Source of the DNA: Candidatus Binatia bacterium
Lineage (GTDB): Bacteria; Desulfobacterota; Binatia; Bin18
Direction of reading: 5' to 3'
Assembly: GCA_022824615.1 (NCBI GenBank)
Contig: JAJDZM010000072.1
Span: 18,343 to 82,342 of the forward strand
Length of the DNA: 64,000 nucleotides
Shown: positions 6,924-56,050 of the stretch, piece by piece
Position numbering within the stretch: position 1 is the stretch's first letter
How the letters are laid out: each line of letters starts with the position of its first letter
Program-made: the position numbers and the translations under genes
Notes under the pieces: generated by a model
Seen by the model: the letters and a program-made list of their open reading frames with translations, nothing else
What the model was told of the DNA's origin: nothing
Database searches by the model: none

Positions 6924-9422
6924 ATGTCTCGTCAGCCGTTCCGGCAAGTGCCTCTCTCGGGTCTTCGCCTGACGAACTGGCTTGAACGGTCAATCCTCAT
7001 CCACCTCGCTCTGGTTTATCTCTTGGGCCAGGTCGGTGTCGCCTGGGGCTGGCAGGTGGCTGCTCCCCTTTGGCTGGGCGGACTGCTGACCCTCAGTGTG
7101 GCCAGCTGGGCCATAGGCGGGTTCCGCTTGGCCGTTTTGGTCAGTTCGCTGAGTGGCGCTTTCCTGGCCGGTCATCTCACCCTCCAGCGAGTCTACGCGC
7201 CCGATTTTCCCGCGCACCACCTCCGACAGCTAGCTTTGCCGCAAAAAGTTATCCTTGAAGGCTGGCTGTTCCGGGAACCGGAACGGGGTCCGGCCCGCGG
7301 CCGATTATATCTTGAGGCGCAACGCCTCTGGCAAGACGGGCAGCCACGGCCGGCAACGGGCAAGGTGCTCGTCACCGTTCGTCATCTCCAGGACCGCTGG
7401 CAGTACGGCGATGTATTGCGGCTTCCGCTCAAAATCCGTACCCCGCGCAATTTTCATACGCCGGGCAGTTTTGACTATGCGGGCTATCTGGCCCGGCGGG
7501 GTCTCTATCTCACCGCTTTTGTGTGGGATGATAAGAAAATCGAAAAGATCGAGCCGGACAACAGGACCGGTACGGGGGTACGTCATCGGCTTGAACACGT
7601 TCGTCGGACGGTCGGCGCATTCTTTGACGCGCAGCTTTCAACCACAGCCGCGGCCATTCTCCGCGCGCTGATTATTGGCGATAAGAGCCGGCTCGATCCG
7701 GAGTTGCGCGACAGCTTCACGCGGGTGGGCGTTGCCCATGTGCTTGCCATTTCCGGGCTCCACATCGGCTTGGTTGCAGCGCTGGCGTATGGGGCCTGGT
7801 GGTGGCTCCTGGCACGGAGTCAGTATGTACTGTTGACGTGGTCGGTACCAAAACTGGCCGCGCTCTGTACGCTGCCGGTCGTACTGCTGTACGCCGGACT
7901 TGCAGGCGGTAGTGTTTCGACCTTGCGCGCGGTCATTATGGTGACGGTTTTTCTCACCGCGCTGCTGCTTGACCAAAAAGAGGAGGTCTTCCGCAGCCTT
8001 GCCCTTGCCGCCCTGGTCGTGTCGCTCATCTGGCCGGGAGCCGTCTTTGATGTGTCTTTTCAGCTTTCCTTTGTCGCTGTCCTGTCTATTTTTCTTGGTC
8101 TGTACCGTTTTCAATCCTGGTGGGATAATCGGGACGAAACGCGTGCGGTCCACCTCTCCCCGTGGCGGCGGCGACTCCGGCGCTGGGCGGTCCTCTATGG
8201 CCTGGTTTCTTTGAGTGCGACAGTTGGGACGCTCCCGCTCGTTGCGACCCATTTTCATACCGTCCCGCTGGTTGGACTTGCGGCCAACCTGCTGCTGGTG
8301 CCTTTCCTGGGGAGTGCCGCTGTAGTGCTGGGCCTGGCTACGGCCGCGCTGGTGTTTATTCATACGGGCGCTGCGACTCTGGTCGTGTGGTGTGCCGGAG
8401 TCGTGACCTCGCTCGGGGTGTGGATGGTCGAAGCTATTGCCACCTTGCCCTTTGCCGCCGCTCACTTTGTGACCCCCACGCTTTTTGAACTTGTTCTGTT
8501 TTATACCTTCTGCGTTTTCCTCCTGTTCGCCGCCCGCCTCCAGCCATCCGGGCTGCGACGGGCCTTTTTCTCCTGCCTGTTCGGCCTGATGCTCTGTGAC
8601 GGCCTGTACTGGCTGACGCAGCGTTATTTCCAGACGGACCTGCGGGTCTCTTTTCTCGATGTCGGACAGGGTGATGCGGCCGTGGTCGAGTTTCCCGGCT
8701 CCCACGTCATGGTCATCGACGCAGGCGGATTCATGAGTCAGACGTTTGATTCGGGTCGGGCTATCGTTGCGCCTTTCGTGTGGCAGCAGAAAATCGGACG
8801 CATAGACACGCTGGTCCTCAGCCACCCCAATCTTGACCACTATGGCGGGCTGGAGTTTCTGGCCGAGCACTTTGGCGTCACGGCCTTCTGGTTCAACGGT
8901 GAAGAGCGGCCGGATAGTCAGCGCTTCCAGCGGTTGATGGCGACGTTGCAAGAGAACGACATCCAGACCCACACCTTGTGTAGTGATACGCCGGACCGGG
9001 AAATCGGCGGAGTGCAGATCCACATCCTGCACCCTCCCTGTGGCCAGACCGGACTGGATACAAACGACGCCTCTCTCGTGCTCCGTCTCAGTCACGGGGA
9101 GGTGGATATGCTGTTTTCCGGGGATGTTGAGGCCGCGGGGGAGGACAGTCTGCTTGCGACACCGGTCCAGCTTGAGAGCGAGATTCTCAAAGTCCCCCAT
9201 CACGGCAGCCGCAGTTCAAGTACTCAGCCCTTTCTCGAATCCGTGTCCCCTCAGGTCGCGGTCGCCTCGCTCGGCTATCGAAACCGCTTTCGTTTTCCAG
9301 CTCCAGAGGTGGTGGACCGCTATGAACGGCAGGGCACGGCATTCCTCAGAACGGACCAGGCGGGGACGATAACGGTGCGGAGCGACGGGAAGCGTTATCG
9401 GGTTGAGACCTTCTTGCCGTAG
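6924..9422 (+). CDS. comEC: ComEC/Rec2 DNA internalization competence protein with C-terminal metallo-beta-lactamase domain
   Basis: 832 aa and polytopic. Competence-domain motif GVAHVLAISGLHIG, and MBL motifs (FLDVGQGDAAVV...LSHPNLDHYGG...VPHHGS). Confidence 0.9.
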   Translation: MSRQPFRQVPLSGLRLTNWLERSILIHLALVYLLGQVGVAWGWQVAAPLWLGGLLTLSVASWAIGGFRLAVLVSSLSGAFLAGHLTLQRVYAPDFPAHHLRQLALPQKVILEGWLFREPERGPARGRLYLEAQRLWQDGQPRPATGKVLVTVRHLQDRWQYGDVLRLPLKIRTPRNFHTPGSFDYAGYLARRGLYLTAFVWDDKKIEKIEPDNRTGTGVRHRLEHVRRTVGAFFDAQLSTTAAAILRALIIGDKSRLDPELRDSFTRVGVAHVLAISGLHIGLVAALAYGAWWWLLARSQYVLLTWSVPKLAALCTLPVVLLYAGLAGGSVSTLRAVIMVTVFLTALLLDQKEEVFRSLALAALVVSLIWPGAVFDVSFQLSFVAVLSIFLGLYRFQSWWDNRDETRAVHLSPWRRRLRRWAVLYGLVSLSATVGTLPLVATHFHTVPLVGLAANLLLVPFLGSAAVVLGLATAALVFIHTGAATLVVWCAGVVTSLGVWMVEAIATLPFAAAHFVTPTLFELVLFYTFCVFLLFAARLQPSGLRRAFFSCLFGLMLCDGLYWLTQRYFQTDLRVSFLDVGQGDAAVVEFPGSHVMVIDAGGFMSQTFDSGRAIVAPFVWQQKIGRIDTLVLSHPNLDHYGGLEFLAEHFGVTAFWFNGEERPDSQRFQRLMATLQENDIQTHTLCSDTPDREIGGVQIHILHPPCGQTGLDTNDASLVLRLSHGEVDMLFSGDVEAAGEDSLLATPVQLESEILKVPHHGSRSSSTQPFLESVSPQVAVASLGYRNRFRFPAPEVVDRYERQGTAFLRTDQAGTITVRSDGKRYRVETFLP

Positions 9423-9460
9423 TGAAGTCGCCAGACGGATTGCTCCAGGTACGAGCATCA

Positions 9461-9590
9461 CCCCTGTGAAAACAGGGGCAGGAATCCAGCCCCTCAACCC
9501 TCCGTTCGTCCTGAGCGTAGCAAAGCGAAGTCGAAGGACTGGATGCCGGATCAAAGCCTGCCCCGGACACGAGCCGGGGTCCGGCATGAC
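9461..9590. repeat. REP/MITE-like palindromic repeat cluster (copy A)
   Basis: Hairpin CCCCTG-tgaaaa-CAGGGG (9461-9478). Unit CCGTTCGTCCTGAGCGTAGCAAAGCGAAGTCGAAGGAC (9502-9539) recurs at 24995-25024. Nested hairpin GGATGCCGGATCAA...GTCCGGCATGACG (9541-9590) recurs in shorter form at 57536-57562. Confidence 0.7.
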
Positions 9591-9630
9591 GAGAGCGGAA
9601 TGGCAGGGCTACAGCCTATCGGAAAACGCT

Positions 9631-9906
9631 CTAGGTCTTCTCCTTCAGCCGGCCCGACAAGTACTTGTGGATCACGCTGGATAATAGCGTCTGATACGGG
9701 ATGCCTTCCTCCCGCGCTCGCGCGTGCGCGAGGTTGAAGTCACGTTCGGTCACCCGCAGGTTGACCCGCCGGGTCTTATGAAAGGTGCTGCGGGCCGCCT
9801 GACGGGCACTCTCCATCTCACGTTCAGCCCCACGGGCGGCCCGCAATTCGCCTCGCTCGAACTTCTCCAGGATTTCCCGCTCTTCGGCATTCAGTTGGTC
9901 GCTCAC
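9631..9906 (-). CDS. brnA: CopG/RHH-type antitoxin (BrnA-like)
   Basis: 91 aa. AEEREILEKFERGEL...RVNLRVTERDFNLAHARAREEGIPYQTLLSSVIHKYLSGRL matches the antitoxin family paired with BrnT-type toxins. Its GTG start overlaps the upstream toxin stop (GTGA). Confidence 0.7.
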   Translation of the reverse strand: MSDQLNAEEREILEKFERGELRAARGAEREMESARQAARSTFHKTRRVNLRVTERDFNLAHARAREEGIPYQTLLSSVIHKYLSGRLKEKT

Positions 9907-10184
9907 GATGATTGCCTCCTGTGATAGTCCCGAGTCGCCTTCCGGCTGGGGATGATCGTCTTCAGGAACCTCGTGCCGTCCGCCTCAGTCACGAAGGGGA
10001 CAAGGTAGAGGTACCGTTCGATGTCCACGACGTAGACCATCTGCCCAGGGTATTTCCCCTGATTGGGGTGTTCCAGTACGTTTACCAGACCACCTTGTTC
10101 AATCTCGGTGACAATACGCTCGAAGGAGATTCCTCGCTGCTCAACGAGTTGTTGGTTCTTTTCCGTAATTCCTGCACAAGAACG
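9903..10184 (-). pseudogene. brnT: BrnT-like toxin, apparently 5'-truncated (no canonical start codon)
   Basis: Not in the ORF track. Manual translation gives ...ITEKNQQLVEQRGISFERIVTEIEQGGLVNVLEHPNQGKYPGQMVYVVDIERYLYLVPFVTEADGTRFLKTIIPSRKATRDYHRRQSS*. The frame is bounded upstream by TGA at 10185-10187, and no ATG/GTG/TTG occurs before the internal Met. The expected N-terminal M-x-F-x-W-D motif is missing. Confidence 0.55.
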
Positions 10185-10271
10185 TCAGCCCTGCGAAAGA
10201 CGTGACGGTCACAGCGTTTGAGTGGTTTAAGGGGATTGCCTTTTGACCACCGCTTCGCCACAACAGGGGCC

Positions 10272-13064
10272 ATGCCACGCCTCTCCTGGAACGAAATCCG
10301 CGCCCGCGCCGCCACATTTGCCGAGGAGTGGCGGGACGCCGCCTATGAGAAAGGCGAGACGCAGAGTTTCTATAACGACTTCTTTGACATCTTCGGCGTC
10401 AAGCGGAGCAGCGTTGCCCGCTATGAAGAGCGTGTCAAGAAGCTGGACAATCGTTCAGGTTTCATCGACCTATTCTGGCCCGGCGTCCTCCTGGTTGAGC
10501 AAAAGAGCGCTGGCCGTGACCTGACCAAAGCATCCAGACAAGCCGGCGCCTACTTCGACGCCCTGCCCGAGCAAGACCGCCCGCGCTATATCCTGGTCAG
10601 CGACTTTCAGACCTTTGAGCTGTATGACCTGGACGAGCGGGAACGCGCGTTTTTCGCTCTGGCCGACCTGCCTCAGCACGTGGAGAAGTTCGGCTTTATC
10701 CTGGGCGTACAGAAGCGCACCTTCAAGGATCAGGACCCGGTCAACATTCAGGCGTCCGAACTCATGGGCGACCTGCACGACGCGCTCGAACAGTCCGGCT
10801 ACACCGGCCACGACCTCGAACGCTTGCTCGTCCGTACCGTGTTCTGTCTGTTTGCTGATGATACCGGCATCTTCGAGCCACGCGACATTTTTCTTGATTT
10901 CCTGGAAACGCGTACCCGCGAGGACGGTTCCGACTTGGGCCTCTGGCTCTCACGGCTTTTTCAAGTGCTCAATACGCCGGAGGACACACGCCAAAAGAAG
11001 CTAGACGAAGACTTGGCGCGTTTCCCGTATGTGAACGGCGACCTGTTCCGTGGCCCGCTACGTATTCCCGACTTTGACGCCCCCATGCGGCAGGCATTGC
11101 TCGACGCCTGCCGGTTCGACTGGACGGCCATCTCACCAGCGATTTTCGGGGCACTGTTCCAATCGGTCATGGAACCCGCAGAACGCCGCTCTCAGGGCGC
11201 GCACTACACCACTGAGCAGAACATCCTGAAGGTCATCGAACCGCTGTTTCTGGATGACCTGCGGGCGGAGTTCGCCCGGTTACAAGCCCGCAAGGACACC
11301 CATCGACGGCTGGAACTGCATCGCTTTCAACAGCGTTTGGGGACGTTGCGTTTTCTTGACCCGGCCTGCGGCTGTGGCAATTTTCTTATCATTGCCTACC
11401 GCGAGTTGCGCGCCCTAGAGATTGAGGTTTTGAAGGAATTGCGCGCCTATCGTGACGACACGGAAACGGGGGAGCTGGACGTGACGGCCCTGTCGGTCGT
11501 CAACGTAGACCAATTCTACGGCATTGAAATCGGGGAGTTTCCAACTCACATTGCCGAGACTGCACTGTGGATGATGGACCACATCATGAACAACCGGCTC
11601 AGCCTGGAGTTCGGGCAAACCTTCGTGCGTATCCCGCTGACACACTCACCCCATATTCTGCACGCCGACGCCCTGGAAACCGACTGGGCAAGCCTGCTGC
11701 CACCGGAGGAATGCGCGTATGTGTTCGGTAATCCGCCATTTGTCGGCGCAAAGTTTCAGAGCCAGGAACAGCGGGCACAGGTGCGCGGCCTTGCCGGTCT
11801 GGGCGGTAGCGGAGGGACTCTGGATTACGTCACGGCTTGGCTCCTCAAGGCGGGCACGTATATCACAGGGCCGACCCGCATCGGCTTTGTGGCGACCAAC
11901 TCAACGACACAGGGCGAACAGGTGGGCCAGTTGTGGCCCCTGCTATTTGACCGCTACCGGCTGGAGATTGCCTTTGCCCATCGCACTTTCGCCTGGGGCT
12001 CGGATGCACGTGGCAAGGCGCATGTGCATGTTGTCATTCTGGGGTTGGACCGGCGGGACAACGCGCGGACGGAGAAACGTCTGTTTTCCTACTCCGCCCT
12101 CAACGGTGACCCAGAGGAAACCCACCACACTGCGCTGTCACCCTACCTGTTCGACGCTGGTGGCTTGGCCGACCCGCATTTAACAGTACGCAAAGAAAGC
12201 CGCCCGATTAACAGAATGGAGAAGCTGATTATCGGGTCCAAGCCCATTGACGGCGGATATTATATCTTTGACTCGGAGGAACGTGCAGCCTTGCTGTCCG
12301 TGGAGCCGGACGCCGCACCCTTCCTGCGACCGTTTGTCGGTGCCCGCGAATATCTGCAAGGCGGAACGCGCTGGATTCTGGCACTGCACGACGCGCCTCC
12401 GGCAACGCTGGCACGGCTGCCATATATCAAGGAGCGCATTGCTGCGGTCCGCGCGTACCGTCAAGCCAGTAAGAGCGCGCCTACGCAAAAGCTGGCTGAA
12501 ACCCCGAGGCTCTATCATGTGAACGTTCTTCCCTCTGCACCGTTTCTGGTCATCCCCGAGGTCAGTTCTGAACGGCGGGAGTATATCCCTATCGGTTGGT
12601 TGGAGCCGCCTACGGTTCCGAGCAATCTGGTCCGGGTCATTGAGAATGCTACACTCTCGGACTTTGCGCTGCTCACCTCCGCCATGCACATGGCTTGGCT
12701 ACGTCACATCGGCGGGCGGCTGAAAAGCGATTACCGTTATTCCATCGGCCTGGTCTACAACACCTTCCCCACACCACCCGAAGACGCAGACCTGCCAAAG
12801 CTGGAACCGCTGGCCCAAGCCGTGCTCGCCGCCCGCGCCGCCCATCCCGGCGCAACCCTGGCCGACCTGTACGACCCCGACCTGATGCCGCCCAATCTGC
12901 GTAAGGCCCACACGGCACTCGACCGCGTCGTAGACCGCCTCTACCGCCGTGGCGGCTTCGCCTCCGAACGTGAGCGGGTGGAACATCTGTTTGGGTTATA
13001 TGAGAAGATTACCGCACCGTTGGCGGTGAAGCGGAAGCCGAAAAGGAAACGGCGGCGCAGTTAG
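10272..13064 (+). CDS. MmeI-family Type IIL restriction-modification enzyme (fused PD-(D/E)XK endonuclease, N6-adenine methyltransferase and specificity domain)
   Basis: N-terminus LSWNEIRARAATFAEEWRDAAYEKGETQSFYNDFFDIFGV...GFIDLFWPGVLLVEQKS (D...E-x-K nuclease motif as in MmeI). SAM-binding motif FLDPACGCGNFL. Catalytic GNPPFVG. About 930 aa, similar to MmeI. The ATG at 10272 is preferred over the TTG at 10218. Confidence 0.85.
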   Translation: MPRLSWNEIRARAATFAEEWRDAAYEKGETQSFYNDFFDIFGVKRSSVARYEERVKKLDNRSGFIDLFWPGVLLVEQKSAGRDLTKASRQAGAYFDALPEQDRPRYILVSDFQTFELYDLDERERAFFALADLPQHVEKFGFILGVQKRTFKDQDPVNIQASELMGDLHDALEQSGYTGHDLERLLVRTVFCLFADDTGIFEPRDIFLDFLETRTREDGSDLGLWLSRLFQVLNTPEDTRQKKLDEDLARFPYVNGDLFRGPLRIPDFDAPMRQALLDACRFDWTAISPAIFGALFQSVMEPAERRSQGAHYTTEQNILKVIEPLFLDDLRAEFARLQARKDTHRRLELHRFQQRLGTLRFLDPACGCGNFLIIAYRELRALEIEVLKELRAYRDDTETGELDVTALSVVNVDQFYGIEIGEFPTHIAETALWMMDHIMNNRLSLEFGQTFVRIPLTHSPHILHADALETDWASLLPPEECAYVFGNPPFVGAKFQSQEQRAQVRGLAGLGGSGGTLDYVTAWLLKAGTYITGPTRIGFVATNSTTQGEQVGQLWPLLFDRYRLEIAFAHRTFAWGSDARGKAHVHVVILGLDRRDNARTEKRLFSYSALNGDPEETHHTALSPYLFDAGGLADPHLTVRKESRPINRMEKLIIGSKPIDGGYYIFDSEERAALLSVEPDAAPFLRPFVGAREYLQGGTRWILALHDAPPATLARLPYIKERIAAVRAYRQASKSAPTQKLAETPRLYHVNVLPSAPFLVIPEVSSERREYIPIGWLEPPTVPSNLVRVIENATLSDFALLTSAMHMAWLRHIGGRLKSDYRYSIGLVYNTFPTPPEDADLPKLEPLAQAVLAARAAHPGATLADLYDPDLMPPNLRKAHTALDRVVDRLYRRGGFASERERVEHLFGLYEKITAPLAVKRKPKRKRRRS

Positions 13065-13183
13065 CGACTGAAACGAGGAGCTACAGGTCGTACACGGAGA
13101 TGCGAAATTATTACCGATTCCGACAAGGTTTATCGGAAATGTGAGATCAAAATTGCTTCGACATAGTAAGACAAGGAGTGGGG

Positions 13184-13708
13184 ATGGCCGACAACAAACC
13201 CTCAAAACCTGAAGATGCATCACAACTGATAACGAACCCCAAAGAACCATATTCAGCCTTCATAACGGAACTGAGATATAGATATGAACTCCTCTGGCGC
13301 ATACGCCAAATCTACGCTACCGCGATCCTTGCCATAACTGCATTTACAAAAGGCATCGAGCCTACTCCATGTCAGGGACTAGCACTGTTGATACTAATTG
13401 CTGTCTCATTTGTCGCGGTAATAATTACGGACCGGTCTTATCAGAAGAAAAAATACGAATTGCTCAACAATCTTCACAAAATCGAAGAGCATCTTAGGTT
13501 TCCTGACTATTGCCGCCTAGGGAGACCGGATAATATCCGTTGTTGGGATTTGTGGAAAAATTCCATACTGTGGATCATAGTCATCTTCGCACCGGTTCTT
13601 GCAATACTGGACGGAGTGGAGATTTGTAACTGCGTCTCGCAGGAGGGTCAGAACGGTGCTGTTCAAATTCTCTCCCCGTTCCTCACTAATGGCGCGAAGC
13701 CAACGTGA
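13184..13708 (+). CDS. Small multi-TM protein (2-3 TM, SLATT-like topology), possibly chimeric at its 3' end
   Basis: AAGGAG lies 5 nt upstream of the ATG. AT-rich codon usage. Hydrophobic helices IYATAILAITAF, GLALLILIAVSFVAVII and ILWIIVIFAPVLAIL. The last ~25 codons are read antisense through a vapB gene fragment (13632-13732). Confidence 0.55.
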   Translation: MADNKPSKPEDASQLITNPKEPYSAFITELRYRYELLWRIRQIYATAILAITAFTKGIEPTPCQGLALLILIAVSFVAVIITDRSYQKKKYELLNNLHKIEEHLRFPDYCRLGRPDNIRCWDLWKNSILWIIVIFAPVLAILDGVEICNCVSQEGQNGAVQILSPFLTNGAKPT

Positions 13709-13732
13709 GAGTTCGGCATCGATATTCCGAAG
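13632..13732 (-). pseudogene. Fragment of an RHH antitoxin gene (codons ~8-41 of vapB); left copy of a 101-bp direct repeat
   Basis: 91 of 101 nt are identical, without indels, to 15029-15129. It encodes LRNIDAELSRWLRAISEERGENLNSTVLTLLRDA versus LRNIDAELSRRLRAISEERGESLNSTVLALLRDA in the intact gene. It lacks a start codon. Confidence 0.85.
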
Positions 13733-13750
13733 TAGCCAGAGGATAATCCG

Positions 13751-14722
13751 ATGAAGACAACACCCCATGCATTTCTTTGCCACGCCTCGGAAGACAAAGA
13801 GATTGCCAGACCGCTTGCGGAAGAACTTCAGCGTAACGGTGTAGACACTTTCTATGATAAATGGGAAATCGGTCCCGGAGACAGCCTGCGCCAAAAAGTG
13901 GAGGAAGGGATAGGAGACTGTACCCACTTCATCGTGCTTCTGACGCCTATCAGTATCGAGAAGCCGTGGGTACAAGCAGAAATCGATGCGGGCTTTGTAC
14001 GGAATCTTGAAGGCCAGTGTAAATTTATTCCGCTACGTTGCGGCCTAGATGTTGACAGCCTTTCTCCACTCTTGAAGGGAAAACATTCTCCTGCACTCGA
14101 TGGGAGTCACGATGAGAGCAACATCAAGAAATTGATCGACTCCATCTATGGAATCAGCGATAAACCACCATTGGGAGAGCCGCCGCAAGTCATTCAAGAG
14201 AGTTCTGGCGGAGCTTTGGGGCTATCGCCTGCGACCGAAGCCATCGTCAGGATTATGATAGAAGGCTCAGAAAATGGAATGGCCGACGGTCAAATGCTTC
14301 CTCTAGGACAAGTAAAGGAAGCAACAGGCCTTGAGGATGACGACATTATAGACGCCATTGAGGAACTTGAAAGGCAAGGATATGTAGAGGTGGTCTACAC
14401 GCAAAGTATCGATCCTCTCGATGGTGAGCATGTCTGGGCTAAGGATTCTCTATTCGCCACTTTCGATAAGTATTTCAAGCCATGGAATCCTGAAAACGAC
14501 GCACTGCAAATCGCAGCCGACCTCGTGAACGGTAAAGACGGTACCGTACAGGCAATGGCTCAGGAATATAATTGGCCTCCTCGGCGAATGAACCCCGCCG
14601 TGAGTTATCTTATTGAGAACGACTTCGTTGGTTCCAGTCCCGAACTTGGAAGTCACCCTTGGGTGAACCATTGGCTCTATAAAACCCCAAGCACTCGCCG
14701 CTTCGTCCGAGATCGTTCGTAA
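13751..14722 (+). CDS. TIR-domain protein with an uncharacterised ~190-aa C-terminal domain
   Basis: AFLCHASEDKEIARPLAEELQRNGVDTFYDKWEIGPGDSLRQKVEEGIGDCTHFIVLLTPISIEKPWVQAEIDAG is a textbook bacterial TIR N-terminal domain. The C-terminal part has a possible winged-helix-like stretch (DDIIDAIEELERQGYVEVVY). Confidence 0.85.
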   Translation: MKTTPHAFLCHASEDKEIARPLAEELQRNGVDTFYDKWEIGPGDSLRQKVEEGIGDCTHFIVLLTPISIEKPWVQAEIDAGFVRNLEGQCKFIPLRCGLDVDSLSPLLKGKHSPALDGSHDESNIKKLIDSIYGISDKPPLGEPPQVIQESSGGALGLSPATEAIVRIMIEGSENGMADGQMLPLGQVKEATGLEDDDIIDAIEELERQGYVEVVYTQSIDPLDGEHVWAKDSLFATFDKYFKPWNPENDALQIAADLVNGKDGTVQAMAQEYNWPPRRMNPAVSYLIENDFVGSSPELGSHPWVNHWLYKTPSTRRFVRDRS

Positions 14723-14748
14723 TCAAACTCCTGTGGGTTGAGTGAATC

Positions 14749-14766
14749 CGTAACCCGAAAAGCACT
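14749..14766 (+). repeat. 18-nt motif CGTAACCCGAAAAGCACT (copy 1), 27 nt after the TIR gene stop
   Basis: Exact 18/18 match to 16655-16672. A degenerate relative (TGTAACCTGACATC) lies at about 15306. Confidence 0.8.
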
Positions 14767-14830
14767 TCAAAGGAGTGGGATCATTTCGCTGTCTGGGCGA
14801 TGAGTTCCCGTAAGTCTTCGTGCTGACTCC

Positions 14831-14908
14831 TCATTGCAATCTGAAATGTCCGGCGCGTAGAGGCGAGTACGCACTTGTGTCAAGAACCAGCCGCTCGGTC
14901 GGCTTCAC
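14831..14908 (-). pseudogene. vapC: Truncated PIN-domain toxin (vapC stub, 25 codons)
   Basis: The GTG overlaps the vapB stop (GTGA). VKPTERLVLDTSAYSPLRAGHFRLQ* is the typical N-terminus of a VapC PIN toxin (LVLDTS...), then a premature stop. The rest of the gene is absent. Confidence 0.65.
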
Positions 14909-15150
14909 CCCCAATACCGTTGGTCAACGACTCGTTGCGAACGCAACGCAACAGTAAACTCGTCGAGGTCAGCGGGTGTCCACGTCACATAGCGACGCAA
15001 ACGGGTACGCCGCGTCTCCAGGTCCACCGCGTCTCGCAGAAGGGCTAGGACGGTGCTGTTCAAACTCTCACCCCGCTCCTCACTAATGGCGCGAAGCCGG
15101 CGTGAAAGTTCGGCATCGATATTCCGAAGCGTAATCTGTGTGACCGCCAT
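14905..15150 (-). CDS. vapB: Ribbon-helix-helix antitoxin (VapB/FitA-like)
   Basis: 81 aa. MAVTQITLRNIDAELSRRLRAISEERGESLNSTVLALLRDAV is a typical RHH antitoxin N-terminus. It sits immediately upstream of the vapC stub. Confidence 0.75.
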   Translation of the reverse strand: MAVTQITLRNIDAELSRRLRAISEERGESLNSTVLALLRDAVDLETRRTRLRRYVTWTPADLDEFTVALRSQRVVDQRYWG

Positions 15151-15190
15151 ACTGCCCCCCGCATAGCGTTATGAAAACATGAGGTCAAGA

Positions 15191-15298
15191 ATGGGTCAGG
15201 TGGAGCACCTGTTTGGGTTGTATGAGCAAATGATGGTGCCGTTGGCGGTGCAGCGGAAGCGCCGGGAGCGTGGAGTCACCCTCTGTAGGCCAAGTTAG
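15191..15298 (+). pseudogene. Remnant of the 3' end of a second MmeI-family gene
   Basis: 15199-15260 is 51/62 nt identical (no indels) to 12977-13038 at the end of the intact MmeI-like gene. It encodes (M)GQVEHLFGLYEQMMVPLAVQRKRRER... versus RVEHLFGLYEKITAPLAVKRKPKRKR. Confidence 0.8.
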
Positions 15299-15387
15299 CC
15301 GAAGGTGTAACCTGACATCTTTATCAAAGGTCAACAAGTGTTCCAGGGTTTGCTAGGTACAAATCAAATCTTCATAGGAAGGGTGCT

Positions 15388-16644
15388 ATGAGAGAAGACG
15401 ATGTGAGATTGGTCAAATTTTGGAGACAGGGTGCTGATGCAGAGTACACCGGGATGCTTTTTTTGAGGACAGAGGAGAAATCCTCCTTAGTTTTGGACGA
15501 GATACACCCATTTAGCGACCGGAGTATTAGCTATAAATTCTTGGGTAAAACCTACTCAGGAGAAGCTTGCACTCTCTACAGTTGCAGGCCTGAGGGTGAG
15601 CCGGATAACTCGGGAAGAACCATTTTCTATATTGAGAACGTTGTTATTGGGGACCTACCGCCCAACTCGGAATGTAAACTAAAAAAGATGGAGTTTATTT
15701 TTTACGGCGTTGATCCGTGGTTCAGTAATAGGCGGAGATATTTACGCCCCGGCGAAACAGAAAGGGTTGCAGAGTACAATGATGCCCCAGATAAAGACAT
15801 ATTGTTAACCCTAAAGAGGGTCGGATTGCCGCATAGCGTTGACGGAAATAATTGCTGGTTGCAGGTAGAAATCAGTTCAGACTACTCGTTACGGGGCATT
15901 GACCATTTTATCCAGATTAGAGAGGACCTCAATGCGTTTCTTAATTACGCTATGCAGGGCATAGTTAAGACAAACGAGATAAGTTTTTGTACCTCGAATA
16001 CGGGTGGCGAGGTCAGAATATATAGCCATCACCGTATTTTTAACAGTCATGGCGCTTTCAACAGCAGGCTTGGTGATCCTATACGACTGACTGGACTAGG
16101 GCACGGCAAAACGTTTGAGGGGTTTCGGGACGAACTCCCCGCGATTTTAAGTAGATGGTCCTGGCTGTATGGTACATGCAAATGGGAGTTCAATCAGTTA
16201 TTTGAATCACGACTTTTAAGAGAAAGAAGCCCTAATAACTGGTTTATGGCAGCATGTATCCTTCTGGAGGCAATCTATCCTAAGCTTATTCAAACCGCAA
16301 AGGATAGGCCAAATGTGAAGGAGTGTATTGACGAACTTAATAGAATCTTTGGAGTGTCGATTAAGCCTGAACTCTCCAGCCTTGTGAAGGCAGTAAGAAA
16401 CAAGCTTTCTCATGGAGGCCAGTTGAGAAACGATAAAGAAGAAGGAATGGCTAATGAGTTTCTTTCTGCTTCTGACGGAGTGTCAATATTGGCGGAGGAC
16501 TTGGAACGCTTGCTGTTTTGCTACATATCTGCCGGGCTAGGAGTAGACCCTAAAAAGGGGGATGTGACGCGAGACGGCCCGGCTTTTACGTTTACGGCTG
16601 ATAACACAAGAAATTTGCGCCAAGTGTACCCGGAGAATCGTTAG
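15388..16644 (+). CDS. ApeA-like defence protein (ApeA-type N-terminal domain plus C-terminal HEPN with R-x4-H)
   Basis: 418 aa, AT-rich. N-terminus VKFWRQGADAEYTGMLFL...LVLDEIHPF...FLGKTYSGEACTLYSC follows the ApeA N-domain pattern (W..., G-x-L, L-x-L, G-x(4)-G-x(3)-TL-x-x-C). The C-terminus contains VRNKLSHGG (R-N-K-L-S-H, an Rx4H HEPN motif). Confidence 0.6.
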   Translation: MREDDVRLVKFWRQGADAEYTGMLFLRTEEKSSLVLDEIHPFSDRSISYKFLGKTYSGEACTLYSCRPEGEPDNSGRTIFYIENVVIGDLPPNSECKLKKMEFIFYGVDPWFSNRRRYLRPGETERVAEYNDAPDKDILLTLKRVGLPHSVDGNNCWLQVEISSDYSLRGIDHFIQIREDLNAFLNYAMQGIVKTNEISFCTSNTGGEVRIYSHHRIFNSHGAFNSRLGDPIRLTGLGHGKTFEGFRDELPAILSRWSWLYGTCKWEFNQLFESRLLRERSPNNWFMAACILLEAIYPKLIQTAKDRPNVKECIDELNRIFGVSIKPELSSLVKAVRNKLSHGGQLRNDKEEGMANEFLSASDGVSILAEDLERLLFCYISAGLGVDPKKGDVTRDGPAFTFTADNTRNLRQVYPENR

Positions 16645-16654
16645 GAGGCAGAAG

Positions 16655-16672
16655 CGTAACCCGAAAAGCACT
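16655..16672 (+). repeat. 18-nt motif CGTAACCCGAAAAGCACT (copy 2), 11 nt after the ApeA-like gene stop
   Basis: Exact match to 14749-14766. Confidence 0.8.
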
Positions 16673-17253
16673 CTATACTGACAATGGGAGTCCCAAAGCT
16701 CATCTAAGAGAAAAAAGTGCTCTTTTTACCCCGTATTTCGCCCTAAGAGAAACCCCGAATCCAACAATAACAGTCACTTACGGCGTTTTCCGGCCATTTT
16801 TTTCGAAATGAGACAAAACCCGTCAGGACACGCCCACACCCCGCCTCTTGAAATCGCTATTTATTCGGCAAAAACCCATTCTCATCCGCTTTTATTACAT
16901 TCTCATTCTTTCTGTGCTTTCTCACGCAGTGCCAATGGGCTGCGGAGGTTGCGGACAGCCCCGCCAATATGGTATGAAGAAAGCGTGTCGTACATCAAAA
17001 AACCCGTCCCGTACTCACGCATAAAAGTTGAAATAAAAAAGCTAAGTCCTTGATTTTTCAGGGAGTCGAGAAAAAAAGGGGGGGGACCCCTGCCATTTTC
17101 GCCCGAGTGCTGGCTTTATTCGCTCACTCCAGCAAGCGCACAAGTGAAAATATCTAAGCCTGCCTAAAAACCAGGCAAAATGGTCTTTCAACCGGTTGTG
17201 GAACGACAGGCAGGAGACACAGGGCTGATTTGGTCACGCGTCTCCCGCCGTCC

Positions 17254-19428
17254 TCAAAACCGATAGGTATAGCGCACCTTGAAGCGACCCTCGCGGCCGA
17301 TGGAGCGGAAGCCGCCCTCTTCGTCCAGCCAGCGCTGGTTGAAGACCAGAAAGATGTCGTTGCCCGGTTCGATAATCCAGCGAATGCGCGTGTTAATGCT
17401 GAACACGTCCGATACGTTGTCATACTGGATCAGGCTGAACCAGGACAGATTGGGGTTGACGGCTATGTCCAGCCGCACCCGCAGCAGACGCGTGACAAAA
17501 TTGCCCTCAGGCAGCCGGACATCGCTCTGGAGATACTCCGGGCTCAGGAACAGGCGCGGGCCGGGCTGAAAATTAAGACGCAGGTTCCAACTGTCGCGCT
17601 TGCCGCTGTAATAGTCGCCCCAGAAATGGGCCAGACTGGCCGACAGCTTGCGTTTATCCGCGGTCTCGGCTTTGACCATATAACGGCGAAAGGTGTGACG
17701 GCCGGGCAACAGCCGGACACCACGGCTGATCTCAAAATCTTCGGTCAGGCGTTCCAACTGCTGCCAGGCCCGAAACATGAGGGTGTCGCCGCTCTCGAAA
17801 CGCCACTCACAGGGAAAGACGATGTTGCGGGTGAGGAGGCGGTCCGTGGCCTGGTCGGTAATATAATTGCCGTCGAAAGCACAGGCGACCTGCCGCGTTC
17901 CCCAGCGCCCAGGGCGCGGGGCCGCCTGAAGGAACCAGCCAAAGCGTCGAATGCCGGTGCGCGGCACAAAGCCCATGCTGGCGTCAAAATCCCGTTGCAC
18001 CTCGCGATAGGTGCCGAATATCGTCCAGGTATCGTTGGGCAGGTTGATCTGACTGCCCCAGGCCCAGTTCTTGCGCGCCGTGGGACGAAAACTCTTTAAG
18101 ACAAACGAGGACAGGGTGAGGTTGCGCCTTCCCAGAAATCTGGTTGTTTTATACAGAAAGTCATGCCCGTAGAGGCCGGTCGCATCCCCGTTCTCCGGTG
18201 TCCGCCGGGTCGCGATCAGTCCTACCGAGGCCTGTTCTCCGACGTCGCGCTTGAGTCGGATCACGCTGAAATTCTCGCCCGGTACAGGGTCACGTTCTTG
18301 GGTCTGGGCGTTGAGTATCCCCAGGGAATACTTGCCAACTCGACCGCTGAGTTTCGCGCCGCCAATCAGGTCAACCGGTTTGCCGTCGTCGGCAATGCCG
18401 ACCCGCCGGCTGAAAAAAGGGATAATCACCAACGGCCCCGAGGTCGGGGTCAGGCCGTCAACCGCAAAATTGGGGGCGTCCTCCAGAAAGAACTGCCGCT
18501 TCTCGGGGAAAAAGAGTGAGAAGCGCGTCAGATTGACCTGCACATCGTCCGTCTCGGCCTCGGAAAAGTCAGTATTGAGCGTCAGGCTGAGTGTCAGGCC
18601 GGGGGTGGGTTTGTAGAACAGGTCAAAACCCGGCTTAAAGGACGTGGCATCGCGGCGCACCTCGGTGGTCAGAAACGGGGAAAAATCGAGTCCCAGACCC
18701 TGGGACCTGCCGCGCAGTCCGGTGAGTCGGCCCGCGCGTGAGACCCGGTTGAAGTCCAGGCTCTGGAGGTAGCCGCTCCAGACCGTTTCTTCGTTCACCC
18801 GCTTGATGATGCGCTGGACGTTGAAACCCCAGCTCGATTGTCCTGGGGCATAGCTGAGGGTCTGAAACGGAATTTCAAATTCCGCGCTCCAGCCGCTCGG
18901 CGCGCGCGCGGTCTTGACGTTCCAGATGCCGTTCCAGTCCCGGTTCTCGGTCTCCCCCTCGTCTCCGATGAGTTCATCCACCCGCGCCCCAACCGAGTTG
19001 GTTTGAAATTTGAATGCGTTGCGACGATCCGCAAACGTATCGAACAGGAGTGTCACCCGATCATCCGCGGCCAGGTCCGCGTCCCGGTTGAAGCGGGTAG
19101 CAACCGCCGCACTCGGGTCCGAGTCGTGACAGAGCACCCCGACGTAGAGATGGGTCGCCGTGTACAGGACGCGCACCTCGGTTGGTTGGGAGGCCGGGGC
19201 GCCTTCGTCGGGCTCGCGTTGGCGGAAGTCGCTGCCGACCGGCGCGTTCTGCCAGGCCGGCTCGGTCAGCCGACCGTCGAGGACGATGGAGCCGGGAATG
19301 CGCACGGCCTGCAACGCGACCGGGGCAAACACCGAGACTTCCATATCCTCCAGGGGGATGGGCTGGAGGGTGCTCCCGGACTGCGATGTCGGTGTATCGG
19401 CGCCGGCCGGGATGACCAGCGCCAGCAC
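17254..19428 (-). CDS. DUF5916 / carbohydrate-binding family 9-like outer-membrane protein
   Basis: The N-terminal region IVLDGRLTEPAWQNAPVGSDFRQREPDEGAPASQPTEVRVLYTATHLYVGVLCHDSDP is typical of CBM9-DUF5916 proteins. The C-terminus ends ...RFKVRYTYRF (beta-barrel-like terminal Phe). The signal peptide seems to extend upstream of the annotated GTG (RRLISLLIAALAVLALVIPAGA). Confidence 0.7.
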   Translation of the reverse strand: MLALVIPAGADTPTSQSGSTLQPIPLEDMEVSVFAPVALQAVRIPGSIVLDGRLTEPAWQNAPVGSDFRQREPDEGAPASQPTEVRVLYTATHLYVGVLCHDSDPSAAVATRFNRDADLAADDRVTLLFDTFADRRNAFKFQTNSVGARVDELIGDEGETENRDWNGIWNVKTARAPSGWSAEFEIPFQTLSYAPGQSSWGFNVQRIIKRVNEETVWSGYLQSLDFNRVSRAGRLTGLRGRSQGLGLDFSPFLTTEVRRDATSFKPGFDLFYKPTPGLTLSLTLNTDFSEAETDDVQVNLTRFSLFFPEKRQFFLEDAPNFAVDGLTPTSGPLVIIPFFSRRVGIADDGKPVDLIGGAKLSGRVGKYSLGILNAQTQERDPVPGENFSVIRLKRDVGEQASVGLIATRRTPENGDATGLYGHDFLYKTTRFLGRRNLTLSSFVLKSFRPTARKNWAWGSQINLPNDTWTIFGTYREVQRDFDASMGFVPRTGIRRFGWFLQAAPRPGRWGTRQVACAFDGNYITDQATDRLLTRNIVFPCEWRFESGDTLMFRAWQQLERLTEDFEISRGVRLLPGRHTFRRYMVKAETADKRKLSASLAHFWGDYYSGKRDSWNLRLNFQPGPRLFLSPEYLQSDVRLPEGNFVTRLLRVRLDIAVNPNLSWFSLIQYDNVSDVFSINTRIRWIIEPGNDIFLVFNQRWLDEEGGFRSIGREGRFKVRYTYRF

Positions 19429-20279: not shown

Positions 20280-20433
20280 AGCCCCTCCTATTTGACAAAG
20301 AGTAAACGTGTCCGGCAATTACACTTGAATGGAGGATGCGTTTGCTCTTTCCAGACCATAGCGAACCAGACTGAACAGTCTAGCCCATCCCTCTTGCCCT
20401 CGGTGGTGAAAATCTCCAGACTCGACCGGAACC

Positions 20434-28784: not shown

Positions 28785-29155
28785 GTGAGGTGCGCATATC
28801 TTGGTTGCCGCGGGCAATCCTTATAGTGCGGATACGCGGCGTCGTGCGACGCTATAATGTATTTTGGTTACCCTGGGCGATACTTGCAGTATTGGGCTGG
28901 TGCATATTCCACGATCATGACAGTGAGTATGCCAGTCGATCCCACGGCCACTACAAACTTCACGAGCATGACGGGGAGTATGCTGATCGATACCACGGCC
29001 ATAGCCGGATAGATGAACTGGAGGACGAACTCTACTTCGGCAGCAGCCGGATGGATAAACTGGAGACTGAACTAAAACGTCACGACCATTATGGGGAATA
29101 TGCCGATGACGACCACAGCCATTCCGAGTATTCCTGGGAAGGCCACGAGCATTAA
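28781..29155 (+). CDS. Membrane-anchored histidine-rich repeat protein
   Basis: One hydrophobic segment ([16 protein letters not shown]), then three copies of a 14-aa unit H-[DE]-H-x-[SG]-E-Y-A-[SD]-x-x-H-[GS]-H, plus a duplicated SR[IM]D[EK]LE[DT]EL unit. Differences between the DNA repeat copies fall largely at third codon positions of the + frame, which supports this frame. The true start may be an internal GTG (VRRYNVFW...). Confidence 0.5.
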
Positions 29156-29213
29156 GCGGCATAAAGCAAGAATAGAGTACAGAGTCACATGTCAAACTCT
29201 TCTACTCGTATAG

Positions 29214-55365: not shown

Positions 55366-55422
55366 GGGCAGTGAGAGCAAATCCGAATGGTCGTACCACC
55401 AGGGCCATGCTACACACAGGAT

Positions 55423-55983: not shown

Positions 55984-56050
55984 TGTAGACCTTAAACCAA
56001 GGCGCGAGCACGTCCTTGAGCACCTCAACACAGCAAGGACAAGGGTCGGA

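What the first reader, a model, noticed from the sequence alone, without database searches (positions are those of the whole stretch)
10185..17253. Mosaic AT-richer defence island between a start-less brnT and an outer-membrane protein gene
Seen in sequence: codon usage and base composition visibly shift towards A/T, most strongly from about 13.1 to 17.2 kb, compared with the comEC and DUF5916 flanks. Within 7 kb lie an MmeI-like Type IIL R-M enzyme, a small multi-TM protein, a TIR-domain protein, a vapB antitoxin with only a 25-codon vapC stub, a remnant of a second MmeI 3' end, an ApeA-like HEPN protein, and about 600 bp of non-coding AT-rich DNA. Established knowledge: MmeI-family enzymes, TIR proteins, HEPN/ApeA proteins and TA modules all cluster in bacterial defence islands. 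Inference: this is a horizontally acquired, actively rearranging immunity hotspot. It is the most likely place in this window for an undescribed system.
Basis: partly seen in the sequence, partly recalled or inferred. Interest (0 to 1): 0.7.

Follow-up and report, generated by a model that had tools for sequence, protein, structure and literature searches.

The report
Decaying defence islet beside comEC
This is a real, horizontally acquired 7.8-kb anti-phage island in an uncultured Binatia bacterium, but only its restriction enzyme is clearly intact; the rest is a scarred restriction-plus-TIR module carrying two genes with no known relatives.

Summary
GC falls from about 0.59 to 0.44-0.53 between 13.0 and 17.2 kb, and every listed gene or relic is present. 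Nine of eleven sister Candidatus Binatia genomes keep comEC next to the DUF5916 gene. Four of them have only about 50-100 bp between the two genes, and three hold decayed pieces of the same island. The true variable unit is therefore about 9423-17208 and includes brnTA.

The parts are not seven independent cassettes. MmeI, the TIR gene, vapBC and the second MmeI 3' end travel together as one module, which also occurs at other loci in other genomes.

State of the module here:
- MmeI is complete.
- brnT has lost its start.
- vapC is a 25-codon stub.
- A 670-bp low-GC patch (an orphan membrane ORF plus a 104-nt vapB fragment) separates MmeI from the TIR gene. It replaced the 94-residue N-terminal domain that most family members carry.

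The 'ApeA-like' ORF has no relative in searches of 5.8 billion clusters and of 1.84 billion representatives (drawn from about 15 billion proteins). Its ApeA/HEPN label rests on a sub-threshold Pfam match and one RxxxxH motif.

Verdict: an ordinary kind of object, well documented here, with two leads. One is the clade-specific MmeI-TIR pairing; the other is the orphan HEPN-like gene.

The parts
6924..9422 (+). comEC, the conserved left flank (not part of the island)
   Evidence: 82-89% identical in 11 Binatia genomes; homology of all relatives ends at about 9418-9461
9423..9630 (.). Spacer built of REP-like palindromic repeat units; left border of the variable region
   Evidence: Pieces recur in L005, L007, L013, L099 and L101, and a related unit lies at 10163-10198
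9631..9906 (-). brnA-like antitoxin gene (91 aa)
   Evidence: 93% identical to the L013 copy; weak CopG_antitoxin match
9903..10175 (-). brnT-like toxin gene lacking its first ~14 codons and its promoter
   Evidence: Reading frame opens after a TGA with no ATG/GTG/TTG. L013 has the full 101-aa gene plus ~120 bp that are missing here. BrnT_toxin 20.4 bits, sub-threshold
10218..13064 (+). Complete MmeI-family Type IIL/IIG restriction-modification gene (probable start ATG 10272)
   Evidence: Pfam MmeI_N, _hel, _Mtase, _TRD and _C all present; PADLOC PDLC03598 1158 bits. D-x9-ExK, DPACGCGNFL and NPPF motifs are visible in the translation
13065..13628 (+). Low-GC orphan patch carrying the first 150 codons of the 176-aa membrane ORF (ORF 13178-13708)
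   Evidence: The only database match is the identical sequence itself (P0122). Apart from the same-lineage contigs L014 (98.2% variant) and L015, none of the fetched loci matches this patch at DNA level. Two or three hydrophobic segments. 8xMP and SLATT_1 matches far below threshold
13629..13732 (-). 104-nt internal fragment of a vapB gene (codons 8-42); read in antisense it supplies the last 26 codons of the membrane ORF
   Evidence: 89% identical to 15026-15129; 85-87% to vapB of L001, L005 and L099
13751..14722 (+). TIR plus two winged-helix-like modules (323 aa), lacking the family's 94-residue N-terminal domain
   Evidence: TIR_2 87.9 bits. 417 relatives, most of the best-scoring ones ~417 aa. 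No trace of the N-domain in the window. Homology to full-length genes starts at 13731. WxxxE glutamate present
14749..14766 (+). 18-nt sequence CGTAACCCGAAAAGCACT, native 3' flank of the TIR gene (copy 1)
   Evidence: Exact repeat with 16655-16672; 0.03 matches expected by chance; conserved downstream of TIR in L016
14831..14914 (-). vapC (PIN) stub, about 25 codons
   Evidence: Matches the N-terminus of the intact 136-aa PIN gene of L099. The same truncation point occurs in L001, L002 and L005
14905..15150 (-). vapB antitoxin gene (81 aa), intact
   Evidence: FitA-like_RHH 28.4 bits; 89-93% identical in L001, L002 and L005
15199..15298 (+). Relic 3' end of a second MmeI gene; homology ends at about 15262
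   Evidence: 82% to 12977-13038. The same vapB-relic junction occurs in L005 (89%) and L099 (91%)
15388..16644 (+). ORF418, an orphan gene with a sub-threshold ApeA_NTD1 match (aa 10-113) and RNKLSH at aa 337-342
   Evidence: Only itself found among 5.8e9 clusters and 1.84e9 representatives. Pfam 23.5-24.8 bits against a cut-off of 25.5. No hit in PADLOC, NCBIfam, plasmids, phages or viral contigs; only E >= 0.43 chance-level matches in PDB sequences
16655..16672 (+). Second exact copy of the 18-nt TIR 3'-flank sequence
16673..16704 (+). 32-nt relic of the 5' end of a second TIR gene, carrying the same N-domain deletion junction as L016
   Evidence: 94% match to L016 5906-5937, which spans start codons 1-4 joined to about codon 66
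16705..17208 (.). Low-GC DNA without a credible gene (81-codon ORF 16808-17053 has no family hit)
   Evidence: GC 0.47 over 16645-17208; no Pfam, PADLOC, NCBIfam or Rfam match; no similarity to any fetched locus
17254..19428 (-). DUF5916/CBM9 outer-membrane-type protein gene, the conserved right flank (not part of the island)
   Evidence: 95-99.6% identical in nine relatives; DNA homology resumes at 17209

Best explanation
Window ~9423-17208 is the occupied state of a variable insertion spot between the convergent core genes comEC and a DUF5916 outer-membrane-type gene in a Candidatus Binatia genome.

Its backbone is one travelling module. The order is brnA/brnT (leftward), an MmeI-family Type IIL restriction-modification gene, a TIR gene with two winged-helix-like modules directly downstream on the same strand, vapC/vapB (leftward), and the 3' relic of a second MmeI gene.

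Here the module is in advanced mosaic decay:
- brnT has lost its start.
- vapC is a stub.
- A foreign 670-bp patch (an orphan membrane ORF fused to a vapB fragment) sits between MmeI and the TIR gene, in place of the TIR protein's N-terminal domain.
- An orphan 418-codon gene with ~500 bp of non-coding DNA lies between the relics of the second MmeI and a second TIR gene.

Shown: the anatomy, the variability among relatives, and the intactness of MmeI.

Inferred function:
- MmeI is the one working barrier. It is a single polypeptide that methylates one strand of an asymmetric site and cuts unmodified DNA about 20 bp away.
- The TIR protein is an AbTir-type NAD-consuming abortive-infection effector, probably gated by DNA binding through its winged helices. 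In this truncated form its regulation is uncertain.
- ORF418 is most likely a very divergent HEPN-type RNase of the 'beta-rich N-domain + HEPN' (ApeA-NTD1) architecture.
- vapB survives as an orphan antitoxin or repressor.

Content turns over by recombination through the conserved flanks and by short-homology joins inside the island.
For: Hotspot. Four relatives have an empty site, three hold fragments of the same island, and two have an unrelated 390-490 bp filler.

Module. MmeI is followed by the TIR gene on the same strand, with gaps of 10-216 nt, in L016, L017, L018, L100, L101 and L099. These represent at least five different neighbourhoods. L099 also has intact vapC/vapB and the same vapB-MmeI-relic junction at 91% identity. 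L101 has brnT/brnA upstream.

Scars.
- 104-nt vapB fragment, 62-nt MmeI 3' repeat and exact 18-nt repeat.
- N-domain absent from the window.
- 32-nt relic matching the L016 deletion junction.
- ~120-bp deletion at brnT.

Authenticity. A 98.2%-identical strain variant from another assembly has the same MmeI-patch-fragment-TIR-vapB layout.

MmeI. It has all five domains and its catalytic motifs.

TIR.
- AlphaFold model of the 81%-identical full-length relative has pLDDT 82.
- Best PDB matches are AbTir, BtTir, PdTIR and TcpB.
- The Glu of the WxxxE motif is nearly invariant.

ORF418.
- It is a 418-codon open frame in 45% GC DNA.
- An AGGAAGG sequence lies 6 nt upstream of the ATG.
- ApeA_NTD1 match has E = 2e-5 to 5e-5.
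- RNKLSH lies at aa 337-342.
- A weak CARF_HEPN alignment covers that motif.
- Anantharaman et al. 2013 (PMC3710099) describe ApeA-NTD1 as a ~300-aa, mostly beta domain fused to HEPN, and the ApeA/BMEI1217 HEPN family as embedded in R-M operons in epsilonproteobacteria.
Against: - There are no expression or activity data. Everything comes from metagenome-assembled DNA.
- The order of rearrangement events cannot be resolved. Whether ORF418 was inserted here or lost elsewhere is open.
- ORF418's segment is supported by one assembly only.
- The HEPN reading rests on sub-threshold hits. No HEPN model matches, and there is no similarity to the first 400 residues of characterised ApeA proteins.
- The single-sequence AlphaFold model of ORF418 is unusable, with pLDDT 33.
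- Short TIR forms without the N-domain also occur in L016 and L101. The truncation may therefore be tolerated rather than inactivating.
- No integrase or tRNA marks the site.
Confidence: 0.75

Rival explanations
1. Restriction-guard model. In this lineage the gene directly downstream of MmeI is a retaliatory abortive-infection partner. It would be held silent by the working restriction enzyme and released when a phage disables that enzyme, as PrrC is by EcoprrI. The partner slot would be filled by the TIR protein in the main copy and by ORF418 behind the relic second MmeI.
For: MmeI-TIR adjacency on one strand with 10-216-nt gaps in six other loci from at least five contexts. ORF418 starts 90 nt after the relic MmeI stop. 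HEPN proteins of the PrrC and ApeA/BMEI1217 families are recorded inside R-M operons.
Against: The pairing is confined to TIR genes at least 68% identical. Relatives at 55-56% sit alone among housekeeping genes. Among 80 metagenome loci at 38-52% identity, none of about 53 with enough upstream DNA has MmeI upstream; one has it downstream. In L099 MmeI is fragmented but the TIR gene is intact. The left junction of the ORF418 segment lies inside the relic's coding tail, not in a native intergenic region. Adjacency could simply be shared descent of one mobile block.
Confidence: 0.15
2. A working multi-layer arsenal. MmeI, the membrane protein, the short TIR protein, VapB and ORF418 are all functional. 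The membrane ORF plus TIR would form a new signal-plus-pore pair.
For: All five have open reading frames on plausible strands. Very weak SLATT_1 and 8xMP similarity of the membrane ORF. Short TIR forms recur. A strain variant keeps the frames open.
Against: The membrane ORF and the TIR gene are separated by a vapB fragment, which supplies the ORF's last 26 codons in antisense. The membrane ORF is absent from every other TIR locus examined. Its family matches are far below threshold. No conserved partner exists for the TIR family at large.
Confidence: 0.1
3. Relic of an integrative element that targeted the 3' end of comEC and has since lost its integrase.
For: L005 carries a 40-nt duplicate of the comEC 3' end immediately after the MmeI relic, at the right edge of its remnant.
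Against: No such duplicate in the window or in L002 or L013. No integrase or tRNA. The same module sits at unrelated sites in other genomes.
Confidence: 0.15
4. Assembly chimera. The low-GC stretch was joined to this contig by mis-assembly of a metagenome.
For: Sharp compositional break. The ORF418 segment is known from one assembly only.
Against: Independent contigs L014 (98.2% identical variant) and L015 (100% identical) span the MmeI-patch-TIR-vapB junctions. The ORF418 segment is bracketed by relics that belong to this module: the MmeI relic on the left, and the 18-nt TIR flank plus 32-nt TIR relic on the right. The TIR gene is low-GC in every host.
Confidence: 0.03

Closest known systems
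Chromosomal defence islands or hotspots flanked by conserved core genes (as described for E. coli and Pseudomonas pan-genomes; from my own knowledge)
   Same: Variable occupancy between two syntenic core genes, empty sites in close relatives, a mix of restriction, abortive-infection and toxin-antitoxin genes, and deviant composition.
   Different: Small (7.8 kb), in an uncultured class (Binatia), without an integrase or tRNA. Mostly one module in decay rather than several intact systems.
MmeI-family Type IIL/IIG restriction-modification enzymes
   Same: All five family domains in order; PD-ExK (D-x9-ExK), motif I and NPPF motifs present.
   Different: In this lineage the gene is consistently followed by a TIR-winged-helix gene. 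A full-text search for papers holding 'MmeI' together with 'TIR domain' or 'defense island' listed none among its ten best that mention MmeI.
AbTir/BtTir-type bacterial TIR NADases and stand-alone TIR proteins
   Same: TIR_2 domain, WxxxE glutamate, best structural matches AbTir, BtTir, PdTIR and TcpB.
   Different: The family architecture is a small beta-alpha N-domain, TIR and two winged-helix-like modules. There is no conserved Thoeris-type partner gene. The window copy lacks the N-domain. A systematic TIR survey set aside stand-alone TIRs (10.64898/2025.12.03.692087).
ApeA (HEPN tRNA anticodon nuclease; bioRxiv 10.64898/2026.01.26.701840) and the ApeA-NTD1 + HEPN architecture of Anantharaman et al. 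2013
   Same: N-terminal match to ApeA_NTD1 just below threshold, an RxxxxH motif in the C-terminal part, and a location next to restriction-gene remains.
   Different: No HEPN_Apea or PADLOC ApeA hit. It is 418 aa versus about 580 aa. There is no similarity to the helical N-terminal and Mid domains of characterised ApeA. It has no relatives at all.
PrrC-EcoprrI (anticodon nuclease kept latent inside a Type I restriction locus)
   Same: A suicide-type effector gene embedded beside a restriction enzyme gene.
   Different: Different enzyme classes (Type IIL; TIR rather than ABC-ATPase-HEPN). No evidence of interaction. The pairing is clade-specific.

Membership tests
MmeI-family Type IIL/IIG R-M enzyme | Five-domain layout: N-terminal nuclease, helical spacer, gamma-class N6-adenine methyltransferase, TRD and C-terminal domain | tested here: met
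   Pfam MmeI_N, MmeI_hel, MmeI_Mtase, MmeI_TRD and MmeI_C, all far above cut-off, in order; PADLOC PDLC03598 covers residues 22-934
MmeI-family Type IIL/IIG R-M enzyme | Catalytic motifs: D-x9-ExK nuclease, motif I (xDPACGxGxF) and motif IV NPPF | tested here: met
   IDLFWPGVLLVEQK, FLDPACGCGNFL and FGNPPFVG are read directly in the translation
MmeI-family Type IIL/IIG R-M enzyme | Cleavage about 20/18 nt from an asymmetric site, with single-strand methylation | not testable with these tools
   Needs enzyme assay or methylome data
TIR-domain NADase (AbTir-like) | TIR fold with the conserved catalytic glutamate | tested here: met
   TIR_2 87.9 bits. Glu in PWVQAEID, nearly invariant in 37 relatives. 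Foldseek top hits AbTir and BtTir, TM 0.70-0.74 on the target, for the model of an 81%-identical relative
Thoeris (ThsA/ThsB) | TIR gene in an operon with a signal-activated effector (SIR2/SLOG, Macro and similar) | tested here: not met
   No such gene in the island. No conserved neighbour in 84 family loci
TIR plus two winged-helix family (stand-alone, ~417 aa) | Full architecture: N-domain (1-83), TIR, two winged-helix-like modules | tested here: not met
   The window copy starts at family residue 95. The N-domain is absent from all six frames of the window. TIR and the C-terminal part are present at 100% coverage
ApeA (HEPN anticodon nuclease) | HEPN_Apea domain or a match to ApeA defence models | tested here: not met
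   No Pfam HEPN family and no PADLOC ApeA model matches, even at E <= 10
ApeA (HEPN anticodon nuclease) | ApeA N-terminal domain 1 | tested here: inconclusive
   PF18862 scores 23.5 bits (whole protein) and 24.8 bits (N-half) against a cut-off of 25.5; covers profile positions 5-115 of 271
ApeA (HEPN anticodon nuclease) | Similarity to experimentally characterised ApeA proteins | tested here: not met
   BLASTP, plus a profile of the first ~400 residues of Ec1, Ec2, Ec4 and Thr1 ApeA, gave nothing better than E = 0.12. The C-terminal HEPN parts of those proteins were not available
HEPN superfamily | Rx4-6H motif in a helical domain | tested here: inconclusive
   RNKLSH at 337-342. Helical only in a pLDDT-33 model. 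CARF_HEPN match at E = 0.044
VapBC toxin-antitoxin | RHH/AbrB antitoxin plus an intact PIN toxin | tested here: not met
   VapB passes FitA-like_RHH. The toxin is a 27-codon stub, versus an intact 136-aa PIN in L099
BrnTA toxin-antitoxin | Intact BrnT toxin and BrnA antitoxin genes | tested here: not met
   brnT lacks a start codon and about 14 codons. BrnT_toxin 20.4 bits against a cut-off of 34.5. The antitoxin matches only CopG_antitoxin, weakly
Defence island / hotspot | Variable content between conserved flanking genes in close relatives | tested here: met
   Empty in four, fragments in three, other filler in two of nine syntenic relatives
SLATT / 8xMP membrane effectors | Family model match | tested here: not met
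   8xMP 16.7 bits against a cut-off of 30; SLATT_1 12.6 bits against 41

The most novel reading that the evidence does not exclude
In this Binatia-associated lineage the MmeI-type enzyme and the gene immediately downstream would form a two-gene system. A suicide effector would guard the restriction enzyme and fire when a phage neutralises it, a Type IIL counterpart of PrrC-EcoprrI. The usual effector would be the TIR-winged-helix NADase. Behind the relic second copy it would be the orphan HEPN-like ORF418, which would then be the founding member of a new effector family.
Probability: 0.12. Interest if true: 0.7.

Novelty: new member of a known kind. Interest (0 to 1): 0.4.

Why it matters
Defence hotspots are well known, so the island itself is not surprising. 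Its value is threefold.

1. It documents a defined insertion spot (comEC/DUF5916) in Candidatus Binatia, an uncultured class, with empty, partial and full states available for comparison.

2. It exposes a recurrent MmeI-TIR-winged-helix gene pair. A full-text search for papers holding 'MmeI' together with 'TIR domain' or 'defense island' listed none among its ten best that mention MmeI. The large stand-alone TIR family behind the pair belongs to a class that a recent systematic TIR survey set aside. Both are cheap to test in E. coli.

3. It contains a 418-residue gene with no relative among about 15 billion predicted proteins. The gene sits exactly where defence genes accumulate, which makes it a concrete candidate for a new effector.

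If none of these leads holds up, the region is still a clear worked example of how such islands decay by short-homology joins.

Tried and rejected
ORF418.
- Word-indexed search of 5.8e9 clusters and full phmmer against 1.84e9 representatives both returned only the protein itself.
- PDB sequence search gave only E >= 0.43 noise.
- Plasmid and phage tblastn gave nothing credible.
- The viral contig scan found nothing.
- Single-sequence AlphaFold gave pLDDT 33, so no fold search was run.
- Comparison with published ApeA sequences was negative, but the supplement truncates them at ~400 residues, so their HEPN parts could not be compared.

Membrane ORF.
- The search returned only the protein itself.
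- The idea of a SLATT-like pore paired with TIR was rejected. The two genes are joined by a vapB fragment scar, and the ORF is absent from all other TIR loci.

General MmeI-TIR association across the whole TIR family. Rejected: 0 of about 53 metagenome loci with enough upstream DNA have MmeI upstream, and relatives at 55-56% identity are solitary.

The 18-nt repeat as a host-wide repeat. Rejected: only two copies in 64 kb. I saw no integron-type attC symmetry by eye. Its origin remains unexplained.

Other negative results.
- Rfam at E <= 1 found no RNA family in 9300-17400.
- There are no tRNA genes in the window.
- Promoter and terminator scans were not above shuffled expectation.
- L003 and L009, which lack the DUF5916 gene after comEC, are not larger islands. 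They have different synteny, with ABC-transporter-like genes at host GC.
- The '8xMP' literature search gave only irrelevant hits.

Full report
OBSERVATION

The compositional break is real. In 1-kb windows, GC is 0.57-0.63 on both sides and 0.44-0.53 from 13.0 to 17.2 kb. No other stretch of the 64-kb window is as long or as low. The three most deviant 2-kb tetranucleotide windows of the whole sequence lie in 13-17 kb, with z up to 3.8. GC3 falls from 0.69-0.77 in the flanking genes and 0.71 in MmeI to 0.48-0.49 in the TIR gene, the membrane ORF and ORF418.

All listed elements exist.
- A complete MmeI-family gene (10218-13064) has five Pfam domains and a PADLOC Type IIG model at 1158 bits. 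The D-x9-ExK, motif I and NPPF motifs are visible in the translation.
- A 176-codon ORF (13178-13708) has two strong hydrophobic segments and one weaker one.
- A TIR_2 protein lies at 13751-14722.
- A FitA-like RHH vapB (14905-15150, minus strand) is followed by a 27-codon PIN-type stub.
- A second MmeI 3' end lies at 15199-15260, 82% identical to 12977-13038.
- A 418-codon ORF lies at 15388-16644.
- 564 bp (16645-17208) hold no credible gene.
- brnT lacks a start because about 120 bp present in relative L013 are missing.

ORGANISM AND THE SITE

comEC finds eleven close relatives (82-89% identical), ten of them labelled Candidatus Binatia. In nine of these, comEC and the DUF5916 gene are still neighbours.
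- L006, L007, L011 and L012 have only about 50 unaligned bases between the two genes.
- L004 and L008 have 390-490 bp of unrelated filler.
- L013 has brnA, brnT and an internally deleted MmeI.
- L002 has the MmeI 5' end joined to the vapC stub, vapB and a piece of the MmeI relic.
- L005 has the stub, vapB and the relic.

Homology to the window ends at about 9418 and resumes at 17209. The variable unit is therefore about 9423-17208 and includes brnTA. None of the relatives has the TIR gene, the membrane ORF or ORF418 at this site.

L003 and L009 simply have different synteny after comEC. No tRNA or integrase is present. L005 has a 40-nt duplicate of the comEC 3' end at the right edge of its remnant, which may be a trace of an old site-specific insertion.

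THE PARTS ARE ONE MODULE

The TIR protein has 417 relatives. Most of the best-scoring ones are about 417 residues and carry a 94-residue N-terminal domain that the window copy lacks. No frame of the window encodes that domain.

Looking up the closest relatives showed a full MmeI-family gene directly upstream on the same strand. The gaps are 10-216 nt, in L016, L017, L018, L100, L101 and L099. These represent at least five different neighbourhoods.
- L099 also has intact vapC (PIN, 136 aa) and vapB downstream of the TIR gene. It shares with the window the same junction between vapB and an MmeI 3' relic, at 91% identity.
- L101 has brnT/brnA upstream.
- L001 has the TIR gene followed by the same vapC stub and vapB.

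So MmeI, TIR, vapCB and the relic travel together.

The pairing is clade-specific.
- TIR relatives at 55-56% identity sit alone among housekeeping genes.
- Among 80 metagenome loci at 38-52% identity, none of about 53 with enough upstream DNA has MmeI upstream, and no other neighbour is conserved.
- The family also occurs on conjugative plasmids of Alphaproteobacteria.
- The TIR gene is about 0.50 GC in every host, whose locus GC ranges from 0.53 to 0.67, while MmeI is about 0.60. The GC step at 13.1 kb is therefore partly built into the module.

SCARS IN THE WINDOW

1. Between the MmeI stop (13064) and the point where TIR homology begins (13731) lie 666 bp, where intact relatives have 68-71 bp plus the N-domain. 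This stretch consists of a 564-bp orphan patch and a 104-nt internal fragment of vapB (13629-13732, 89% identical to 15026-15129). The membrane ORF runs from the patch into the fragment, and its last 26 codons are vapB read backwards.
2. The N-domain of the TIR protein is gone except for its last five codons. Other lineages lost it independently: L016 by an internal deletion, L101 almost completely, and L001 by a frameshift.
3. The relic MmeI 3' end loses homology at about 15262, the same point as in L005.
4. After ORF418 comes an exact 18-nt copy of the native TIR 3' flank (14749 and 16655; 0.03 expected by chance). Next comes a 32-nt stretch that matches, at 94%, the peculiar N-domain deletion junction of L016. 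ORF418 thus lies between the relics of a second MmeI and a second TIR gene.
5. About 500 bp of low-GC DNA with no match to any family or fetched locus follow.

A 98.2%-identical strain variant from another assembly (L014) and an identical Logan contig (L015) carry the MmeI-patch-fragment-TIR-vapB layout. At least that half is therefore not an assembly artefact.

THE TIR PROTEIN

An AlphaFold model of the 81%-identical full-length relative, built with 37 family sequences, has mean pLDDT 82. It shows a small beta-beta-alpha-beta-beta-alpha N-domain, a TIR domain and two winged-helix-like modules.

Foldseek places the TIR domain next to AbTir, BtTir, PdTIR and TcpB. The glutamate of the WxxxE motif is nearly invariant and is present here as E77.

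PADLOC and NCBIfam match only the TIR domain of other systems: PDC-S66, bSEFIR, ThsB and retron-TIR. I infer an NAD-consuming abortive-infection effector gated by nucleic-acid binding. This inference is not tested.

ORF418

It is a true orphan. It finds only itself among 5.8 billion clusters and, by full phmmer, among 1.84 billion representatives. There is nothing credible in PDB sequences, plasmids, phages or viral contigs.

A 418-codon open frame in 45% GC DNA is not expected by chance (my estimate is about 1e-10). An AGGAAGG sequence precedes the ATG.

The ApeA label rests on three weak observations:
- PF18862 (ApeA_NTD1) at 23.5-24.8 bits against a cut-off of 25.5;
- an RNKLSH motif at residues 337-342;
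- a weak CARF_HEPN alignment over that motif, E = 0.044.

Anantharaman et al. 2013 describe ApeA-NTD1 as a ~300-residue, mostly beta domain fused to HEPN. They also describe the ApeA/BMEI1217 HEPN family as embedded in R-M operons in epsilonproteobacteria (PMC3710099). That fits the layout and the location.

The experimentally studied ApeA proteins are about 580 residues, mainly helical, and act as tRNA anticodon nucleases activated by deoxydinucleotides (10.64898/2026.01.26.701840). ORF418 shows no similarity to their first 400 residues. I therefore do not file it as ApeA. I rate 'divergent HEPN-type RNase' as the most likely function, at roughly 50-60%.

VERDICT

The finding is real and its interpretation as a horizontally acquired, rearranged defence hotspot is supported. 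It is a known kind of object. Only the restriction enzyme is demonstrably intact, and much of the rest is debris of one module.

Two leads are worth a small experiment: the lineage-specific MmeI-TIR pairing, with a possible restriction-guard logic like PrrC-EcoprrI, and the orphan HEPN-like gene. I set interest at 0.4.

Noticed in passing
window 29000-30000 and 55400-57300: Two further low-GC patches (0.49 and 0.51-0.53). Their ORFs (29214-30014; 55387-55983; 56250-57299 minus strand) have no Pfam match. They may be other small acquired islets.
   Followed up: partly
window 9423-9630 and 10163-10198; L099 2482-2561 and 8387-8442; L101 589-645 and 12911-12966: REP-like palindromic repeat units fill the comEC-brnA spacer. 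Copies of the same element flank the MmeI-TIR module in inverted orientation in two other genomes. They could be recombination substrates or simply abundant intergenic repeats.
   Followed up: partly
L002 16648-19221 and L008 15976-18526 (equivalent to window ~20318-20434): Relatives L002 and L008 carry about 2.5 kb of extra DNA between the enoyl-CoA hydratase gene and the DUF790 gene. The window lacks it, so this is a second variable spot close by.
   Followed up: no
L005 13254-13293: A 40-nt duplicate of the comEC 3' end sits right after the MmeI relic at the right edge of L005's remnant island. This hints at an old att-like duplication. No such copy exists in the window.
   Followed up: partly
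L001, L016, L017 downstream of the TIR gene: A conserved pair, a 379-aa HTH_3 + Peptidase_M78 (ImmA/IrrE-like) protein followed by a 168-aa PIN-like protein, recurs downstream of the TIR gene in three loci. It is the commonest neighbour in the family (8 loci) and is absent from the window.
   Followed up: no
L105 (Methylorubrum extorquens pCMU01 53646-66848): On this conjugative plasmid the TIR-winged-helix family member sits in a cluster with three other TIR-domain genes, an N-6 DNA methylase, an integrase and an IS256 transposase.
   Followed up: no
window 14749-14766 and 16655-16672: The exact 18-nt repeat CGTAACCCGAAAAGCACT lies just 3' of both the TIR and ORF418 stop codons. Its first copy is native TIR flank. 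Why the second copy sits between ORF418 and the relic of a second TIR gene is unexplained.
   Followed up: partly
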